Positions 1-22,454 of a DNA stretch of 64,000 bases are shown here, one piece after another. Position numbers and translations under genes: made by a program. The stretch lies in assembly GCF_009914755.1 (NCBI RefSeq), contig NC_060928.1. One strand, written 5' to 3'. The notes under the pieces were generated by a model. That model was not told the origin of the DNA. It did not search any database and saw only the letters and a program-made list of their open reading frames with translations. This DNA is from the human T2T-CHM13v2.0 reference genome, Homo sapiens. Each line of letters starts with the position of its first letter. Positions within the stretch are counted from its first letter, which is position 1.

Positions 1-1190
1 AATTAACTCAAGATGGATTAAAGACTTAAATGTTAGACCTAAAACCATAAAAACCCTAGAAGAAAACCTAGGCAATACCATTCGGGGCATAGGCATGGGC
101 AAAGACTTCATGACTCAAACACCAAAGCAATGGCAACAAAAGCCAATACTGACAAATGGGATGTAGCTAAACTAAAGAACTTCTGCACAGCCAAAGAAAC
201 TATCAACAGAGTGAACAGGCAACCTACATAATGGGAGAAAATTTTTGCAATCTATCCATCTGACAAAGAACTAATATCTGGAATCTACAAAGAACTTAAA
301 CAAATATACAAGAAAAAAACAAACAACCCCATCGAAAAGTCAGTGAAGGTTATGAACAGACACTTCTCAAAAGAAGACATTTATACAGCAACAAACATAT
401 GAAAAAAAGCTCATCATCACTGGTCGTTAGAGAAATGCAAATCAAAACCATAGTGAAATACCATCTCCCTCTAGTTAGAATGGCGATCATTGAAAAGTCA
501 GGAAACAGCAGCTGCTGGAGAGGATGTGGAGAAACAGGAACACTTTTACACTGTTGGTAGGAGTGTAAATTAGTTCAGCCATTGTGGAAGACAGTGTGCC
601 CATTCCTCAAGGATCTACAGCCAGAAATACCATTTGACCCAGCGATCCCATTACTGGGTATATACCCAAAGGATTATAAATCATTCTACTATAAAGACAC
701 ATGCACATGTATGTTTATTGAAGCACCCTTCACAATAGCAAAGACTTGAAACCAACCCAAATGCCCATCAGTGATAGACTGGATAAAGAATATGTGGCAG
801 ATATACACTATGGAATGCTATGCAGCCATAAAAAAGGATGAGTTCATGTCCTTTGCAAGGACATGGATGAAGCTGGAAACTATCATTCTCAGAAAACTAA
901 CACAGGAACAGAAAACCAAACACCGCATGTTCTCACTCATAAGTGGGAGTTGAACAATGAGAACACACGGACACGGGGAGGGGAATATCACACACTGAGG
1001 CCTGTTGGGGAGTAGGGGTCTAGGGGAGGGATAGCATTAGGAAAAATACCTAATGTAGATGACGGATTGTTGGGTATAGCAAACCACCACAGCACATGTA
1101 TACCTATATGACAAACCTGCATGTTGTGCAAATGTATCCCAGAAAGTACAATAAAAAATTTAAATTTAAATTTAAATTTAAAAAAAGGTA
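1..1190 (+). mobile_element. L1PA-type LINE-1 3' end (end of ORF2, 3' UTR, degenerate A-tail); continues upstream of the window
   Basis: ORF2 C-terminus ...KHRMFSLISGS* ends at 953. It is followed by the G-rich 3' UTR (GGGGAGGGATAGCATTAGG) and an A-rich tail with TTTAAA repeats. Confidence 0.95.
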
Positions 1191-1199
1191 AAAAAGTAC

Positions 1200-1513
<314 letters not shown>

Positions 1514-1799
1514 TGATATTTTTTACATAGTTAAAATAGTCACAGAAATACTCATTCGTATTTAATACACACAATTAGTCTTTAGGGTTTTCTTGAATAT
1601 GTACTCATGATTCAATTAAATGTTGAGTTGATTCATGCACACACACGTGTGTAGGTGTGGGTATGTTTTGTGTTTTATTTAACCATTTTAATGCTATTAT
1701 TGATAGGCTATTCAGTGAATTAAAAAAAATTATCCTAATACAGGTTCTCAAACATTTATAAAGGTATTTTTAAACACAAATGCATTTTTTCAATAATTA

Positions 1800-2390
1800 T
1801 ATTAAATATTTTATTTGTTCATTAATTTATTTAGCAAATTTTATTGAGTATAATTTGGCACTAGGATGATCAACAGGCAGATAATACAATTAGTAAATAA
1901 AACAGATAACAATTTCCTGTACTTCTGGTGATTATAGTCTAGTTCAGCAAGACAGATGCTAATACAATAAGTAATAAAATACACAGTATATTAGAAGCAA
2001 TGGATACCAAAAATAAATAAATAAAGCTAAGAAGGATAACATTAAATATTGAGGGCTATTTGCAATTTAATAGAATGCTTCCCTGAGAAATTGTCAGTTC
2101 ACCAAAAATGTAGTAAGGATGAGAACAGGGGCCAAACAGAAGGATATGAAAAGCACTGTTTAGTGAGTCAATCAGTATTGTACTTACAGTGAGGGAAGAA
2201 CAAAAAGAAGGCAAGAGGTACTGGGATGGATGTAAGCAACAGAGAGGGAGAAGCTGATGTCCATGAGGTAATGCTGTGTGTTGAGGAATCTGATTGTGAC
2301 AACCTTTTAAGGAAATGTTAAGGGGATTTGACTGTCATTCCAAGGGAGGTAGAAAGCTATGGGAATATTTTAAGAAGCCATGTACCTCTG
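1800..2390 (-). mobile_element. L2 3' fragment (ancient)
   Basis: TTCATTAATTTATTTAGCAAATTTTATTGAG resembles the reverse complement of the L2 3' end. Highly diverged. Confidence 0.55.
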
Positions 2391-3769
2391 GCTTCTGATG
2401 AGTTTGTACTTTGTTATTCTGGCATTGAGAAAACATATAGATGTGAGCATTGTTTTCTAGCGATTTACAGTAAGTATCCATAAGGACAATGAACCAACCT
2501 TAGTCATCATGCTGCACACCATACAAAAACAGCATGCCCTTAACCCATTTTATATCCACATTGGCCAGGGTTTCTTTGAAGAAATCCCCAGAATTACTGA
2601 AATTGATTATTTCACACTAAGAAGAAGAAGAAAAAAACTTCAAAATTCTAGCATGAATTTTGTCCAAACCATAAGGAAATTTATCTGCAGATATATGTGC
2701 CTAAGCAGAAATTTCTTCCTTTAAAAATAATTTTACCAGCTTTTTTAAACCCAAAAGATGCCGTATTAATGTGGATTAATTTATTGGCTGAATTTTGTAG
2801 TAGCTCCTCTACTACTGTATTTTTGAGTCACTGTACATTCTTCTTAAAAGGAAACTGTGAATTGTACTTTGGGATATTATCTGGACCAACTCTCATGTCA
2901 AGGAGACAGTGCTTGATATTTCTAAGCTGTCCATGGAACTGCTCTAAGTTCACAGCAGTGACAGATGTTTTTGCTTTTCCATATTTTTATGGCTCATTTA
3001 TTATTTCAAAGGCCATATAAGAGTAAAGGCTATTTATGAGTGAAGAGGGAAAACATATTAATTTGCAATGTATGTTCACATTGTTATCTTTTTCCAAGTG
3101 TTTTCATGACCTAAGAACATTCTGAATCATAGAATAACCTCCTTAAGTCATCTAATGTATATAGTTGCATTTTCACTTTTTTCCTCTAAAATATACATAT
3201 TTTTCTCCATAAATCTACTAATAGAGAGATAGGAAACTTTATTCATTATATAATCTAATCATATTTTTAACAGAAAAGTATGCTACTCCATAAAGTAACA
3301 TGATACTTATAAAAGCATGAATGAACTATTGTTTGAAAGATAATAAAACTTTCAGAATGTCCAAGACATTCTTGATAATCTCAAGAGAACTGCCAAATAA
3401 AAGAAGTTCTTTGAAGGTGAAAATGTTTTAATATTTCATTACCATCTACTATATGACACTAAACTGAGCTTAGAGACTGAAAAATATTTAGAAATTTCTA
3501 AAACAACTCAACTAATGATATCAACATGTTACAAATGTATTTTCATAAATCTCCAAACACGGGGACATGTTTACCTAGACACATTTATGTGTTTGAAGAT
3601 ACACACACACACACATACACACTCACACACAAAATTCTTCTAATCTATAAACAAGCCATGATTTGAACATATATGCTATTATTTCATCCTTGACTCCCTA
3701 TCCTCCCTAAAGTCACCTGTCCTCTATATCAAATTAATCAAAAGTACAGCAAATGGTAAAGTGGACAGC

Positions 3770-3965
3770 AATCCAGGCTTGCCACTGAACAAATTGTGCA
3801 ATCTCAAGTAATTTATTTATATTCCATCCCTCAGTTTCCTCATAAAGTGGAGATAATAATAGCATCTCTCACCCTGGTCTTTTGTGATTGTTAATTACTA
3901 GTGTACAGAGAGAATTTGCAATTATACCTGGCACACAGTAAGCTTTTGTAATGATTAACTGTTAT
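3770..3965 (+). mobile_element. MIR
   Basis: MIR core CCTCAGTTTCCTCAT...GATAATAATAG and tail CCTGGCACACAGTAAG. Confidence 0.75.
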
Positions 3966-3998
3966 TATAATTACCTCTGTTGAGCTAAAATAATGAAC

Positions 3999-4210
3999 AA
4001 AAGGAAGAGTTAAAAGGGACATTTTTTTTTGTATTGGTGGTGGGCAACCCATTAGGGATTGAGTCAGTAAATTCAAAGGAAACTACACAGAGCTGCTAGA
4101 TCCTGTGGAAGTGAGAGACAAAACTAGTATAATTTTATAGAAATAATTTTAATTTTAGATGCAAGGATGAATGTAGCTAAGAACAATGAAATTCTTACCA
4201 ATTAGTGATT
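3999..4210 (+). repeat. Copy 1 of a diverged ~210-bp local duplication (copy 2 at 5347-5560)
   Basis: Colinear similarity, e.g. AAATAATTTTAATTTT.GAT...GGATGAATGTAGC.AAGAACAAT.AAATTCTTACCAA in both copies. Confidence 0.8.
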
Positions 4211-4259
4211 TAGTCTAAAGGGAGCTTCATGACACAGAAAAAAGACTAGAGATTTTATG

Positions 4260-4475
4260 AATATTTCTGGGCTCTCTATTTTGTGCCCTTGATATATGTG
4301 TCAATTCTTTTACCATTACCACACTGTCTTGATTACTGTAGCTTTGTAGTAAGTTTTGAAGTCAACTTGTGCCAAGTGCTCTGACTTTGTTCTTTTTCAA
4401 CACTGTTTTGAATATTCTGGGTCTTTTGCCTTCCCCTATATTTAAAATCAATTTCTCAATATCCTCAAAATAGCA
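4260..4475 (-). mobile_element. Old L1M ORF2 fragment
   Basis: ACCACACTGTCTTGATTACTGTAGCTTTGTAGTAAGTTTTGAA is typical antisense L1M sequence. Confidence 0.75.
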
Positions 4476-5346
4476 TAGTAGGGTAATCAGAAAACAACTG
4501 TAAAATGCAATAAACAGTGTTATATCTAGGATCTATCAGTCATGCATACTACAGGGATGTGGGTAGCCTCACTGAAAAATCTTTCATCTTGTCGATCATG
4601 TTTCTGCAACTCCTTGACCACAAGGATTTACAGAAAATGTTTTACTATAAACATTTTCTATAAAAAAGTTGATTTTCTAGGAATATTTTAGAAAATATTA
4701 ATTAATTAATTAATGCATTAAATAATGAATTATTGATTAGTGGATAAATCCTTGCAATGAATTATGCAAAGCCATTTTGTAAGAATCAAAAGCAAAGCAA
4801 TTTCTCTAATAGTTCATTTTATAACATATTGTTGATGACACATGTAAATATTGTTTATATATTTTCCAAATCTATTTCCTTAGTTTCTTTAACATGTTTT
4901 TTAAGAGAAGTATTAAAACTCTCAATACTTTTCATTTGAAACAAAAATGTTTCAATCTTACCCATTGATAAGGAATCATTATATTCCATCTAACACTCTG
5001 TTTCTATGAATTTCATCATTCAAAATTAAGGTTGTCATTGGTTTCACATTTTAAACTCTACTTTCCTCAGCTAAAAACTTCAGGCATTTAAATACTGATA
5101 GTGAATGTTATATTCTCTCCCAGCTTTAAACAATTGTTTCTTTTTTCAGCATGTTTATTTCAGTAAATGTTTAAAAAACTATCTTTAGAATTTGAAGTGT
5201 ATTTTTTTTAACTGCTCATACTCTCAACTATTTGTTTTGTTGTTCTTTCTCCATTTTCTGGTACAAGATAAAAACGAACAGTATAAATGAACATATATAT
5301 ATGTGTGAATGTATATATGTATATATACATTCACATACATACAGAC

Positions 5347-5560
5347 AAAAGAAAGAGTTAAGAAGGCAATTTTTGGTATGGATAGTGGGCATAACATTAT
5401 GGAATACAGTCAGAAAATTCAAAAGAAGCTGCATAGAGCAGCTGGATTCTGTGGAAGTAAAAGACGAAACAAACATAAAAACTTCATGAAAATAATTTTA
5501 ATTTTTGATATAGGGATGAATGTAGCAAAGAACAATAAAAATTCTTACCAAGTAGCGATT
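5347..5560 (+). repeat. Copy 2 of the diverged local duplication
   Basis: Colinear with 3999-4210. Confidence 0.8.
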
Positions 5561-5931
5561 ACACAGCTTTGACTGCATTGTAAATTGTTCACACTATAGT
5601 TCTAATTAATCTTTAACTTAACGCTTATACTGATATTTTTTACAAATTTCTTGAGTGATTGTATCTTCTTGGTTCTCTTTTTGTTGATTTTCAGTTGTAT
5701 TATATATATTAAAATTTATTGAATTTTATTGAGATTTTGTGACATTATGTAATTATGTTTTTTCTAGGCTGTTAAGCATAGTAAAAAAAAAACCCAGTAT
5801 ATTATTTGTTTGCAAAATCCCAATAGAATCTAAGCCCTAAAATATAAATAAATAGTAAAAAAATGTTGTAGGTCTCTAAGATTTTTTTTAATGAAAATCA
5901 TAATAGCGTCTGTGCTTTAAAAGCTTAATTG

Positions 5932-18900: not shown

Positions 18901-19163
18901 TCTGACTGGAGAGAAGACTGAGATGAGGAAAGAAATTTCTGAATCAGTACCATGCCTTTTGTTTGTTTGTTTATTTATTTGTTTTTCTTCCTTCTCAGAA
19001 TTACTAAAAGAATAGAATACCAAAAAGGGAACAATGATGGCCGAGTTTCCTCTTAGAGGACAGTACTGATCCATCTGTGTCTTTGCGTATGGTTGTGAAG
19101 GTGATACAGGCCAGGTTTACCATCCATCTGACCCTTCATCATAACAAACAAACCTATGTTCTT

Positions 19164-20131
19164 TGTGGGGAAAAGCAAGAGAGATCAGATTGTTACTGTG
19201 TCTGTGTAGAAAGAAGTAGACATAGGAGACTCCATTTTGTTATGTACTAAGAAAAATTCTTCTGCCTTGAGATTCTGTTAATCTATGACCTTACCCCCAA
19301 CCCCGTGCTCTCTGAAACATGTGCTGTGTCAACTCAGAGTTGAATGGATTAAGGGTGGTGCAAGATGTGCTTTGTTAAACAGATGCTTGAGGGCAGCATT
19401 CTCCTTAAGAGTCATCACCACTCCCTAATCTCAAGTACCCAGGGACACAAAAACTGTGGAAGGCCGCAGGGACCTCTGCCTAGGAAAGCCAGGTATTGTC
19501 CAAGGTTTCTCCCCATGTGATAGTCTGAAATATGGCCTCATGGGAAGGGAAAGACCTGACCGTCCCCCAGCCCGACACCCGTAAAGGGTCTGTGCTGAGG
19601 AGGATTAGTAAAAGAGGAAGGAATGCCTCTTGCAGTTGAGACAAGAGGAAGGCATCTGTCTCCTGCCTGTCCCTGGGCAATGGAATGTCTCGGTATAAAA
19701 CCCGATTGTATGCTCCATCTACTGAGATAGGGAAAAACCGCCTTAGGGCTGGAGGTGGGACCTGCGGGCAGCAATACTGCTTTGTAAAGCATTGAGATAT
19801 TTATGTGTATGCATATCTAAAAGCACAGCACTTAATCCTTTACATTGTCTATGATGCAAAGACCTTTGTTCACGTGTTTGTCTGCTGACCCTCTCCCCAC
19901 AATTGTCTTGTGACCCTGACACATCCCCCTCTTTGAGAAACACCCACAGATGATCAATAAATACTAAGGGAACTCAGAGGCTGGCGGGATCCTCCATATG
20001 CTGAACGCTGGTTCCCCGGGTCCCCTTATTTCTTTCTCTATACTTTGTCTCTGTGTCTTTTTCTTTTCCAAATCTCTCGTCCCACCTTACGAGAAACACC
20101 CACAGGTGTGTAGGGGCAACCCACCCCTACA
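19164..20131 (+). promoter_or_regulatory. HML-2 LTR (LTR5_Hs type), 968 bp
   Basis: TG...CA termini and the canonical 968-bp length. TATAAAA at 19694, ATGCAAAG (OCT4-type motif) at 19854, AATAAA at 19956. Many CpGs are retained. Confidence 0.96.
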
Positions 20132-20133
20132 TC

Positions 20134-20151
20134 TGGTGCCCAACGTGGAGG
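20134..20151 (+). other. Primer-binding site, tRNA-Lys
   Basis: TGGTGCCCAACGTGGAGG lies 2 nt after the LTR end. Confidence 0.92.
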
Positions 20152-20236
20152 CTTTTCTCTAGGGTGAAGGTACGCTCGAGCGTGGTCATTGAGGACAAGT
20201 CGACGAGAGATCCCGAGTACGTCTACAGTCAGCCTT

Positions 20237-20245
20237 ACGGTAAGC
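20237..20245 (+). promoter_or_regulatory. HML-2 major splice donor
   Basis: ACG|GTAAGC in the leader just upstream of the gag ATG, the expected position. Confidence 0.75.
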
Positions 20246-20274
20246 TTGTGCGCTCGGAAGAAGCTAGGGTGATA

Positions 20275-21302
20275 ATGGGGCAAACTAAAAGTAAAATTAA
20301 AAGTAAATATGCCTCTTATCTCAGCTTTATTAAAATTCTTTTAAAAAGAGGGGGAGTTAAAGTATCTACAAAAAATCTAATCAAGCCATTTCAAACAGAA
20401 GAAGATAGCGTTTCAGTTTCTGATGCCCCTGGAAGCTGTATAATAGATTGTAATGAAAAGACAAGGAAAAAAATCCCAGAAAGAAACGGAAAGTTTACAT
20501 TGCGAATATGTAGCAGAGCCGGTAATGGCTCAGTCAACGCAAAATGTTGACTATAATCAATTACAGGAGGTGATATATCCTGAAACGTTAAAATTAGAAG
20601 GAAAAGGTCCAGAATTAGTGGGGCCATCAGAGTCTAAACCACGAGGGCCAAGTCCTCTTCCAGCAGGTCAGGTGCCCGTAACATTACAACCTCAAAAGCA
20701 GGTTAAAGAAAATAAGACCCAACCGCCAGTAGCTTATCAATACTGGCCGCCGGCTGAACTTCAGTATCGGCCACCCCTAGAAAGTCAGTATGGATATCCA
20801 GGAATGCCCCCAGCACCACAGGGCAGGGCGCCATACCCTCAGCCGCCCACTAGGAGACTTAATCCTACGGCACCACCTAGTAGACAGGGTAGTGAATTAC
20901 ATGAAATTATTGATAAATCAAGAAAGGAAGGAGATACTGAGGCATGGCAATTCCCAGTAACGTTAGAACCGATGCCACCTGGAGAAGGAGCCCAAGAGGG
21001 AGAGCCTCCCACAGTTGAGGCCAGATACAAGTCTTTTTCGATAAAAATGCTAAAAGATATGAAAGAGGGAGTAAAACAGTATGGACCCAACTCCCCTTAT
21101 ATGAGGACATTATTAGATTCCATTGCTCATGGACATAGACTCATTCCTTATGATTGGGAGATTCTGGCAAAATCGTCTCTCTTACCCTCTCAATTTTTAC
21201 AATTTAAGACTTGGTGGATTGATGGGGTACAAGAACAGGTCCGAAGAAATAGGGCTGCCAATCCTCCAGTTAACATAGATGCAGATCAACTATTAGGAAT
21301 AG
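20275..21302 (+). pseudogene. gag: HML-2 gag, truncated in capsid, with an in-frame matrix deletion and a +1 frameshift
   Basis: MGQTKSKIKSKYASYLSF... at 20275. NLIK is joined directly to PFQTEED. The A7 run at 20467-20473 shifts the frame. The Gag frame continues to ...IDADQLLGI. Confidence 0.95.
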
Positions 21303-21388
21303 AACAAAATGGAGTCTCCTATGTCTACTTCTTTCTACACAGACACAGTAACAATCTGATCTCTCTTGCTTTTCCCCACATTATATGA
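20453..21388 (+). CDS. gag: 311-aa open frame: Gag SP1/p15 plus capsid N-terminal part, fused to an antisense-U3-encoded tail (translation unproven)
   Basis: ORF track. Contains the PTAP late-domain motif and the CA start PVTLEPMPPG. The C-terminal EQNGVSYVYFFLHRHSNNLISLAFPHII is mostly from the inverted LTR piece. Confidence 0.45.
   Translation: MKRQGKKSQKETESLHCEYVAEPVMAQSTQNVDYNQLQEVIYPETLKLEGKGPELVGPSESKPRGPSPLPAGQVPVTLQPQKQVKENKTQPPVAYQYWPPAELQYRPPLESQYGYPGMPPAPQGRAPYPQPPTRRLNPTAPPSRQGSELHEIIDKSRKEGDTEAWQFPVTLEPMPPGEGAQEGEPPTVEARYKSFSIKMLKDMKEGVKQYGPNSPYMRTLLDSIAHGHRLIPYDWEILAKSSLLPSQFLQFKTWWIDGVQEQVRRNRAANPPVNIDADQLLGIEQNGVSYVYFFLHRHSNNLISLAFPHII
21303..21380 (-). repeat. Inverted copy of LTR nt 1-78 (first copy)
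   Basis: Exact reverse complement of 19164-19241. Confidence 0.97.
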
Positions 21389-21586
21389 GGACATTATTAG
21401 ATTCCATTGCTCATGGACATAGACTCATTCCTTATGATTGGGAGATTCTGGCAAAATCGTCTCTCTTACCCTCTCAATTTTTACAATTTAAGACTTGGTG
21501 GATTGATGGGGTACAAGAACAGGTCCGAAGAAATAGGGCTGCCAATCCTCCAGTTAACATAGATGCAGATCAACTATTAGGAATAG

Positions 21587-21664
21587 AACAAAATGGAGTC
21601 TCCTATGTCTACTTCTTTCTACACAGACACAGTAACAATCTGATCTCTCTTGCTTTTCCCCACA
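21587..21664 (-). repeat. Inverted copy of LTR nt 1-78 (second copy, forms the element end)
   Basis: Exact reverse complement of 19164-19241. Abuts the TSD. Confidence 0.97.
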
Positions 21665-22149
21665 GTTCTTCTTTGAGTGAAAAAATACAGTGCAGGCAGT
21701 TGTAATTGTCTCTCAGTGAAAGGTAGGCACTAGGATACTGAGTTAGATTTACTGAAATGAGTCCTCAGAACAGCACAACATGGAGTATACAAGTCAGACA
21801 TGTCTTCAAAGTTCTGGAAGACATTTCATCAAAAGCAGAAACTTAAACCCAATTTTAATCTGCTTTGTGTCCATTATATTTCCTGTCTGTTGACATGGAC
21901 ATCCTCCTTTTCTCTTGCACCTGACTTATTACAACAAGTCTAGGTCTGAATCAGTTATTCCACCAAGAATCCTAGAAAGGTAGATTTTTGAAATAATCAC
22001 CATCTTTTCAAATTTCAAATATCAAGTCATAGATTTGACAAACTGAATTCAGAGCTCTTTTGAATAAATCCTTATTTTCTGGTTCTTTCATCTCCTGTAA
22101 CCTCAAGTGAAACTTATCCATCAATTTTTCACTTGTGCCTACATCTAAG

Positions 22150-22454
22150 TGTGATGTGCTGTCACTCTTGACTGAATTAAACAATACCTAGAAGACTGGT
22201 AAAGCACTATTTGGGGCTATGTCTGGGATGACGTTTTCAAAGGAAATAATGTGTGAACCTGAAAGACTAGCCTGTTGTAGGACTTCTCAGCCTCCATAAC
22301 TGTGTGAGCCAATTCCCATCATAAATCCCTTCTCATAAATCCTTATCTATCTGTCTATCTGTCTGTCTGTCTATCCATCCATCCATCTATCTATTTACAT
22401 ATATATATATATATATATATATCCTCTTCGTTCTCTCTGGAGAACACTAATACA
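22150..22454 (+). mobile_element. MLT2-type (ERVL) LTR remnant with internal (TCTA/TCTG/TCCA/TA)n microsatellite
   Basis: CCTCCATAACTGTGTGAGCCAATTCC and terminal CTCTGGAGAAC.CTAATACA. Confidence 0.75.

What the first reader, a model, noticed from the sequence alone, without database searches (positions are those of the whole stretch)
19158..21670. HERV-K(HML-2) element apparently integrated through two U3 ends, giving terminal inverted repeats and a perfect 6-bp TSD
Seen: the left end is LTR nt 1. The right end is the exact reverse complement of LTR nt 1-78 and finishes in the att dinucleotide CA. GTTCTT flanks both sides. Established: HML-2 integrase makes 5-6-bp TSDs and normally pairs one U3 end with one U5 end. 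Inference: the rearrangement happened before integration, during reverse transcription, and the intasome accepted a U3/U3 substrate. A post-integration deletion or inversion would be unlikely to leave an exact att end against an intact TSD. The result is a 2.5-kb germline retroviral relic with DNA-transposon-like architecture that cannot reduce to a solo LTR by direct-repeat recombination. It resembles a catalogued short human-specific HML-2 locus (I recall 4q32.1, unverified), so the locus is probably known even if this mechanism is not.
Basis: partly seen in the sequence, partly recalled or inferred. Interest (0 to 1): 0.85.

Follow-up and report, generated by a model that had tools for sequence, protein, structure and literature searches.

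The report
Known HERV-K relic with two U3 ends
This is a catalogued, broken human endogenous retrovirus copy (HML-2 4q32.1, also called HERV-K124) that seems to have been inserted by both of its "left" ends after a copying error, a rare but already published oddity.

Summary
An HML-2 element lies at 19164-21664. It starts at LTR nt 1 and ends in the exact reverse complement of LTR nt 1-78, finishing in CA. GTTCTT flanks both sides.

- The last 568 bp are a perfect 2 x 284-bp tandem repeat, each unit being 206 bp of gag plus the 78-bp inverted U3.
- gag carries a private 168-bp deletion.
- gag also carries a frameshift.

The locus is in print. Subramanian 2011 lists it as 4q32.1. Shin 2013 describes it as HERV-K124, giving the same 968/1171/78(reversed)/206/78(reversed) anatomy and the GTTCTT duplication. 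Shin calls the mechanism unresolved and cites a 2002 Hughes and Coffin paper on a transposon-like ERV element. The two papers disagree on whether chimpanzee shares the insertion.

My reading is that integrase inserted a DNA with U3 ends on both sides. That DNA arose from a homology-guided template switch. The gag/U3 junction sits at the only near-match to U3 nt 66-76 in 9.4 kb of reference provirus. The internal repeat junction uses the exact viral DNA terminus, so the duplication probably formed before or during integration.

A genome screen found no second such element among 232 exact U3 starts. Interest is low to moderate.

The parts
19158..19163 (.). Left copy of the 6-bp target-site duplication GTTCTT
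   Evidence: Read directly. Shin 2013 Table S3 gives the same duplication for this locus.
19164..20131 (+). Complete 968-bp HML-2 5' LTR (TG...CA)
   Evidence: 98.3-98.7% identical over 19164-20395 to 6 of 7 reference proviruses. Start and end junctions were compared with L002, L005 and L009.
19164..19241 (+). Left arm of the terminal inverted repeat (U3 nt 1-78)
   Evidence: the repeat finder pairs I1 and I2, 78 nt, 100% complementary. Confirmed by script.
20132..20274 (+). Primer-binding site and leader
   Evidence: The sequence after the LTR end is collinear with the reference proviruses.
20275..21302 (+). Broken gag remnant. It has a private 168-bp deletion (junction overlap 20386-20395) and a one-base insertion near 20467 that shifts the frame. 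It is cut off inside the capsid N-terminal domain.
   Evidence: BLAST and junction print. Indel list. ORFs. Pfam Gag_p10 covers profile 2-34 of 85, at 22.2 bits against a cut-off of 23.9; Gag_p24 covers profile 2-92 of 128, E 1.4e-29.
21303..21380 (-). Internal copy of the inverted U3 nt 1-78. Its outer end (CA) is joined directly to gag position 21097-equivalent.
21097..21664 (+). Perfect tandem duplication of 2 x 284 bp (206 bp gag + 78 bp inverted U3). The boundaries share no bases with the neighbouring sequence.
   Evidence: the repeat finder D1. TRF period 284, 2.0 copies, 100%. Boundary bases checked.
21381..21586 (+). Second copy of the last 206 bp of the gag remnant
   Evidence: Same as the 'internal 206' of Shin 2013 Table 3.
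21587..21664 (-). Terminal inverted U3 nt 1-78, forming the right end of the element and ending in CA
21665..21670 (.). Right copy of the target-site duplication GTTCTT

Best explanation
This is the catalogued HML-2 locus 4q32.1, also called HERV-K124. It is a dead, non-coding retroviral relic.

Proposed origin, in four steps:
1. During reverse transcription, a plus-strand DNA primed at the polypurine tract had the authentic U3 nt 1 as its 5' end. After 78 nt it left its template.
2. It re-annealed through U3 nt 66-76 to the one nearly complementary plus-sense site in gag, then copied gag, leader and LTR back to the left end. The result was a short linear DNA with a U3 att end on both sides.
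3. The last 284 bp were copied a second time while the U3 end was still a free DNA end. This could have been a further end-to-internal template jump or the resolution of two overlapping plus strands.
4. The viral integrase processed both CA ends and inserted the molecule, making the 6-bp GTTCTT duplication.

Shown: the anatomy, the duplication, the microhomology and the target duplication. Inferred: which enzyme acted, the order of events and the timing.
For: - Both ends carry U3 nt 1 against an intact 6-bp duplication.
- Junction homology: the 11-nt U3 nt 66-76 has exactly 1 antisense site within one edit in 9,354 nt of a reference provirus, scanned as three separate pieces. That site abuts the junction.
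- Junction direction: the product keeps the U3 version of the imperfect homology plus two mismatched terminal bases, then continues in register with gag. This fits a strand that grew from U3 into gag and was extended without trimming. There is no comparable homology on the gag side of the junction.
- The repeat junction joins the last base of the U3 end (CA) to gag with no shared bases on either side. One partner was therefore the physical end of the viral DNA.
- The two bases after CA at the repeat junction match what an unprocessed U3 end would carry, judging from the polypurine tract of a reference provirus. They also match gag, so this is ambiguous.
- The 168-bp gag deletion lies between short direct repeats and keeps the 3' version, as a minus-strand switch would. 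It is absent from all 7 reference copies.
- hg19 shows the same 968/1171/78/206/78 layout, so this is not a CHM13 assembly artefact.
Against: - Nothing here shows which polymerase made the junctions. Host replication-based switching or end joining could give similar products.
- The two 284-bp units are identical in CHM13 and differ at 1 position in hg19. From the element's own 8 private substitutions in 2,137 nt, I would expect about 2 differences if the duplication were as old as the insertion. Zero has a probability of roughly 0.1, which mildly favours a younger duplication or gene conversion.
- The same 78-nt switch appears twice. That needs either a repeated identical jump or re-copying of the first product.
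- The empty site was not seen here, and two papers disagree on whether chimpanzee carries the element.
Confidence: 0.6

Rival explanations
1. U3/U3 integration occurred, but the substrate was made by host end joining rather than reverse transcriptase. A broken viral DNA (LTR to gag) and a short U3-end fragment were joined by microhomology-mediated repair. Alternatively, the U3 ends of two separate molecules were inserted together and their inner ends were then joined.
For: A microhomology sits at the junction. Retroviral integrases need only about 20 bp of an LTR end (passages of PMC7240061). In vitro they pair ends of separate donor molecules (recalled).
Against: The junction keeps two mismatched bases beyond the homology and stays in register with gag. 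End joining would normally trim such a 3' flap. This rival does not explain the 284-bp repeat any better.
Confidence: 0.15
2. An ordinary provirus, or a K108-like tandem provirus, integrated normally. Later inversion, deletion and template switching in the genome reshaped it. This is one reading of the 'LTR inversion and template switching' sketch of Shin 2013.
For: Shin 2013 frames the locus as two internals and three LTRs. The identity of the repeat units suggests a recent event.
Against: A genomic rearrangement would have to break exactly at U3 nt 1 and at the first base of the right target copy. An inverted copy of the left junction would carry the complement of the target duplication, not GTTCTT. 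The two 78-bp pieces and the two gag pieces are exact copies of one another, so a single 284-bp duplication is simpler than independent truncations.
Confidence: 0.07
3. A snap-back inverted dimer of viral DNA, with full LTRs in inverted orientation at both ends, was integrated through its two U3 ends. The unstable palindrome then collapsed in the genome by an asymmetric microhomology deletion that left only 78 bp of the right arm.
For: This gives the same two U3 ends and target duplication. The microhomology at the deletion junction also fits.
Against: A hairpin has only one duplex end until it is replicated, so a dimer is hard to make before integration. It needs an extra step. It does not explain why the repeat junction uses the exact U3 terminus.
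Confidence: 0.06
4. This concerns the repeat only. The 284-bp tandem duplication is a late genomic event, such as replication slippage or unequal exchange, unrelated to integration.
For: There are 0 differences in 284 bp in CHM13 and 1 in hg19. Tandem duplications are common.
Against: The right boundary of the repeat coincides to the base with the end of the viral DNA. It has no microhomology. For a random breakpoint this is a coincidence of the order of 1 in several hundred.
Confidence: 0.2

Closest known systems
HERV-K124 of Shin et al. 2013 (PLoS One 8:e60605), which is HML-2 4q32.1 of Subramanian et al. 2011
   Same: It is the same locus. hg19 chr4:161579938-161582439 is described as 5' LTR 968, internal 1171, LTR 78 reversed, internal 206, LTR 78 reversed, with target duplication GTTCTT. 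These numbers match the window exactly.
   Different: Shin treats it as two internals plus three LTRs and calls the mechanism unresolved. In the passages and section I read I did not see the U3/U3 integration inference, the junction microhomology, the 168-bp deletion, or the point that the repeat boundary is the viral terminus. I did not see their Figure 1B.
[quoted passage not shown]
   Same: By its title, it describes an ERV-derived element with transposon-like architecture. Shin 2013 cites it as the source of a mechanism for LTR inversion.
   Different: The paper is not held. I saw only the title in a reference list. I cannot tell whether it concerns this locus or proposes U3/U3 integration.
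HML-2 7q22.2 (HERV-K126 of Shin 2013)
   Same: It is another young HML-2 relic whose LTR is inverted relative to its internal sequence. Its breakpoints lie at landmarks of reverse transcription.
   Different: It has a full LTR plus 21 nt of primer-binding site, followed by 3.9 kb of internal sequence in inverted orientation. That sequence ends exactly at the first base of the primer-binding site. The far end has no att site and there is no 6-bp duplication.
HML-2 insertions with long target-site duplications (Kahyo et al. 2017; Mamedov et al., cited there)
   Same: Kahyo's Table 2 lists this locus with a 206-bp 'duplicated sequence flanking LTR5_Hs'.
   Different: Here the duplicated 206 bp is viral gag, not host target. 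The 78-bp piece it flanks is repeated too. The true target duplication is the 6-bp GTTCTT.
Cut-and-paste DNA transposons and MITEs
   Same: They share terminal inverted repeats ending TG...CA, a short target duplication, and insertion by a DDE-type enzyme.
   Different: The element has no transposase gene. The repeats are retroviral U3. It is a single copy with no family: it is the only such pair among 232 exact U3 starts. There is no sign that it moved again.

Membership tests
HERV-K(HML-2) provirus, young LTR5Hs-type group | LTR of about 968 bp, TG...CA, closely similar to LTRs of known HML-2 proviruses | tested here: met
   968 bp. 98.3-98.7% identity over LTR plus leader to 6 of 7 reference loci. 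The subgroup name is taken from the literature, not tested.
HERV-K(HML-2) provirus, young LTR5Hs-type group | Primer-binding site, leader and gag collinear with HML-2 | tested here: met
   gag is 98.2-98.8% identical to 7 of 7 reference loci. Pfam Gag_p24 E 1.4e-29.
HERV-K(HML-2) provirus, young LTR5Hs-type group | 5-6-bp target-site duplication | tested here: met
   GTTCTT lies on both sides. Other classical HML-2 insertions in Shin Table S3 have 5-6 bp.
HERV-K(HML-2) provirus, young LTR5Hs-type group | Two LTRs in direct orientation bounding gag-pro-pol-env | tested here: not met
   There is one full LTR only. The internal part stops in the gag capsid domain. The right end is 78 bp of inverted U3.
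Solo LTR | A single LTR directly flanked by the target duplication | tested here: not met
   1,533 bp of leader, gag and inverted U3 lie between the LTR and the right target copy.
Tandem provirus of the K108 type (LTR-internal-LTR-internal-LTR) | Three LTRs in direct orientation from LTR-LTR recombination | tested here: not met
   The second and third 'LTRs' are identical 78-bp inverted pieces. They lie inside a perfect 284-bp tandem repeat.
Class II DNA transposon or MITE | Terminal inverted repeats plus target duplication | tested here: met
   78-bp perfect repeats and a 6-bp duplication.
Class II DNA transposon or MITE | Own transposase, or a family of copies mobilised in trans | tested here: not met
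   The only ORFs are gag fragments. Among 232 exact U3 starts in the assembly, no other outward-facing pair within 25 kb has this structure. The chr8 pair, 18.7 kb apart, was not inspected.
HML-2 insertion with a long target-site duplication (Kahyo 2017) | Host target DNA of tens to hundreds of bp duplicated on both sides of the element | tested here: not met
   The duplicated 206 bp aligns to HML-2 gag of all 7 reference loci. The host flanks are unique and share only GTTCTT.

The most novel reading that the evidence does not exclude
The element is a base-resolved germline fossil of a retroviral intasome that used two U3 ends. Its substrate would have been built by a chain of reverse-transcriptase template switches: polypurine-tract start, homology-guided jump at nt 78 into gag, then a return to the U3 terminus. 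This would show that in vivo HML-2 integrase will insert any DNA bounded by no more than 78 bp of U3. It would also show that terminal duplications of viral DNA can arise before integration, as a mirror image of the 'long target duplications' reported for this family.
Probability: 0.55. Interest if true: 0.45.

Novelty: already known. Interest (0 to 1): 0.3.

Why it matters
The element is an inert relic with no gene nearby, so it has no evident function. Its value is as a natural record of two steps of retroviral replication going wrong and still ending in a heritable insertion.

It supports, in a germline, what is known in vitro: integrase needs only short att ends and does not require one U3 and one U5.

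It also corrects how the locus is filed. It is not a tandem provirus, and it is not a long-target-duplication case.

For annotation and expression studies, two points matter. The locus has one intact LTR that cannot collapse to a solo LTR. Its 284-bp repeat could vary in copy number.

Tried and rejected
- Empty site by paralogy: I searched the assembly with 400 bp of each flank. Each flank is unique apart from one 35-nt chance hit, so there is no paralogous empty site. No ape genome is available in these tools.
- Screen for other U3/U3 elements: the first 20 nt of U3 gave 232 exact matches, split as 63+61+63+45 by upstream base. A script found outward-facing pairs within 25 kb at three places.
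  - This locus.
  - chr3:104.41 Mb, which is a separate solo LTR with its own CTGTCC duplication.
  - A chr8 pair 18.7 kb apart, which I did not inspect.
- Two same-orientation pairs that I inspected are a nested LTR-in-LTR insertion (chr8:91.8 Mb) and two full LTRs 2.3 kb apart (chr11).
- The screen misses copies whose first 20 nt are mutated.
- Literature: only Shin 2013 discusses the structure. Hughes and Coffin 2002 and their 2005 Genetics paper are not held.
- I rejected the idea that the 206-bp repeat is a long target duplication, because it is gag.
- I rejected an assembly artefact, because hg19 has the same layout.
Full report
**What is there**

The window is T2T-CHM13 chr4:163990001-164054000 (hub note). 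The element runs from 19164 to 21664, 2,501 bp in all. Its parts, in order, are:
- a complete 968-bp HML-2 LTR (19164-20131)
- primer-binding site and leader
- a gag remnant starting at the ATG at 20275 and ending at 21302
- the reverse complement of LTR nt 78-1 (21303-21380)
- a second copy of the last 206 bp of the gag remnant (21381-21586)
- the inverted 78 bp again (21587-21664)

GTTCTT lies at 19158-19163 and at 21665-21670. Both 78-bp inverted copies pair 78/78 with the left end, and position 79 does not pair. The stretch 21097-21664 is a perfect two-unit tandem repeat of 284 bp. The bases just outside its boundaries do not match each other, so the boundaries are exact.

**Family and state**

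I searched the assembly with the 1,171-bp internal part. The search returned 93 matches, with 40 of 86 candidates scored. The best of them are other HML-2 proviruses at 96-99% identity. Against seven fetched copies:
- LTR plus leader is 98.3-98.7% identical in 6 of 7. The seventh, L003, lacks most of its 5' LTR.
- gag is 98.2-98.8% identical in 7 of 7.

Relative to all seven, the element lacks 168 bp of gag after 20385. The deletion lies between short imperfect direct repeats, and the 3' version of the repeat is kept. The element also has a one-base insertion near 20467 that shifts the frame. Pfam finds only the start of Gag_p10 (below the curated cut-off) and positions 2-92 of 128 of Gag_p24. 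The relic is non-coding.

**The gag/U3 junction**

A reference copy continues past the junction with a 12-nt stretch. That stretch equals the complement of U3 nt 66-76 with one extra base. The element instead carries the U3 version, preceded by U3 nt 77-78, and is otherwise in register with gag.

I searched the antisense of a reference provirus for U3 nt 66-76, allowing one edit. The provirus was scanned as three separate pieces totalling 9,354 nt. There was exactly one site, and it abuts the junction. Queries that included nt 77-78, or that were longer, found none.

The homology lies on the U3 side of the junction. The product also keeps two mismatched bases at what would be the 3' end of a U3-sense strand. 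I infer three things:
- The growing strand was U3 nt 1-78 in plus sense. Its 5' end is set by the polypurine tract and is therefore the authentic att end.
- It re-annealed to plus-sense gag.
- It was extended without trimming.

This is what a non-proofreading polymerase such as reverse transcriptase does. It is less like end joining. This is inference, not proof.

**The repeat junction**

The internal junction joins the terminal CA of the inverted U3 directly to gag at the base equivalent to 21097, with no shared bases. In a reference provirus the polypurine tract ends in a run of A before U3 nt 1. An unprocessed U3 end would therefore carry two more bases, and these happen to equal the first two gag bases at the junction. 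The junction thus fits either a processed or an unprocessed end.

Either way, one partner was the physical terminus of the viral DNA. A later genomic duplication would have to break at that base by chance. I therefore place the duplication before or during integration.

One finding counts against this. The units are identical in CHM13 and differ at one position in hg19 (Kahyo 2017 Table 2). From the element's own 8 private substitutions in 2,137 aligned nt, I would expect about two differences if the duplication were as old as the insertion.

**Integration**

U3 nt 1 lies against an intact 6-bp duplication on both sides. This is what a concerted integrase reaction on two U3 ends would leave. 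An inverted copy of the left junction would carry the complement of the target sequence, not GTTCTT. A genomic inversion or fold-back therefore does not explain the right end.

**Age**

The 8 private substitutions (3 at CpG) are in the range of proviruses listed as human-specific: 7, 8, 8 and 14 for the copies at 22q11.21, 10p12.1, 1q22 and 12q14.1. This does not settle whether chimpanzee shares the element.

**What is in print**

- Subramanian 2011 (PMC3228705; Table 1 row and footnotes seen) lists 4q32.1 at hg19 chr4:161579938-161582360. It gives oldest common ancestor as chimpanzee and age as N/A. That range stops before the last 78 bp.
- Shin 2013 (PMC3625200; passages, all of section 5 and supplement passages seen) names the locus HERV-K124. 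It gives the 968/1171/78 reversed/206/78 reversed layout and the duplication GTTCTT. It marks no polymorphism in its panel and classes the locus as human-specific. It says the mechanism 'is not clearly resolved', speculates on 'LTR inversion and template switching', and cites Hughes and Coffin 2002.
- Hughes and Coffin 2002 is not held. I know only its title.
- Kahyo 2017 (PMC5488345; abstract and sections 11 and 13 seen) lists the locus among 'long duplicated sequences flanking LTR5_Hs' (206 bp, one mismatch, pre-integration site not determined). My alignment shows that the 206 bp is gag, not host target.
- Searches for other accounts found none.

**Screen for similar elements**

The first 20 nt of U3 occur 232 times exactly in the assembly, 107 forward and 125 reverse. 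Outward-facing pairs within 25 kb exist at three places:
- this locus
- chr3:104.41 Mb, an unrelated solo LTR with its own 6-bp duplication
- a chr8 pair 18.7 kb apart, which I did not inspect

By this narrow test the architecture is unique in the assembly.

**Verdict**

The core inference, two U3 ends and a pre-integration rearrangement, is the best reading. The locus, its odd layout and its target duplication are already published.
- the junction homology and its direction
- the point that the repeat boundary is the viral terminus
- the refiling of the locus as neither a tandem provirus nor a long-target-duplication case

Noticed in passing
L013 (G000:C7:106061500-106069500), positions 773-5674: HML-2 7q22.2 has a full LTR plus 21 nt of primer-binding site in one orientation. 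This is followed at once by about 3.9 kb of internal sequence in the opposite orientation, ending exactly at the first base of the primer-binding site. There is no second LTR, and the flanks (TTAGAG and GCAGTT) do not match. It looks like another aberrant reverse-transcription product. Shin 2013 lists it as K126 with a reversed LTR.
   Followed up: partly
L016 (G000:C8:91806900-91809600), positions 1006-2701: Two U3 starts lie 119 bp apart in the same orientation. One HML-2 LTR is split after about nt 122 by a second complete LTR, making a nested LTR-in-LTR insertion.
   Followed up: partly
L014 (G000:C3:104412000-104418500), positions 4500-5468: A solo HML-2 LTR lies in inverted orientation 2.8 kb downstream of the 3q12.3 provirus. 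It has its own CTGTCC duplication, so it is an independent insertion and not a U3/U3 element.
   Followed up: yes
window 22344-22423: A (TATC)n microsatellite of about 20 units at 85% matches lies 0.7 kb downstream of the element.
   Followed up: no
window 21097-21664 versus hg19: The two repeat units are identical in CHM13. Kahyo 2017 reports one mismatch between the 206-bp copies in hg19, so at least one variant distinguishes human haplotypes inside the repeat.
   Followed up: no
G000:C8:144988689 and 145007345: An outward-facing pair of exact U3 starts lies 18.7 kb apart on chr8. It was not inspected and is probably two unrelated LTRs.
   Followed up: no
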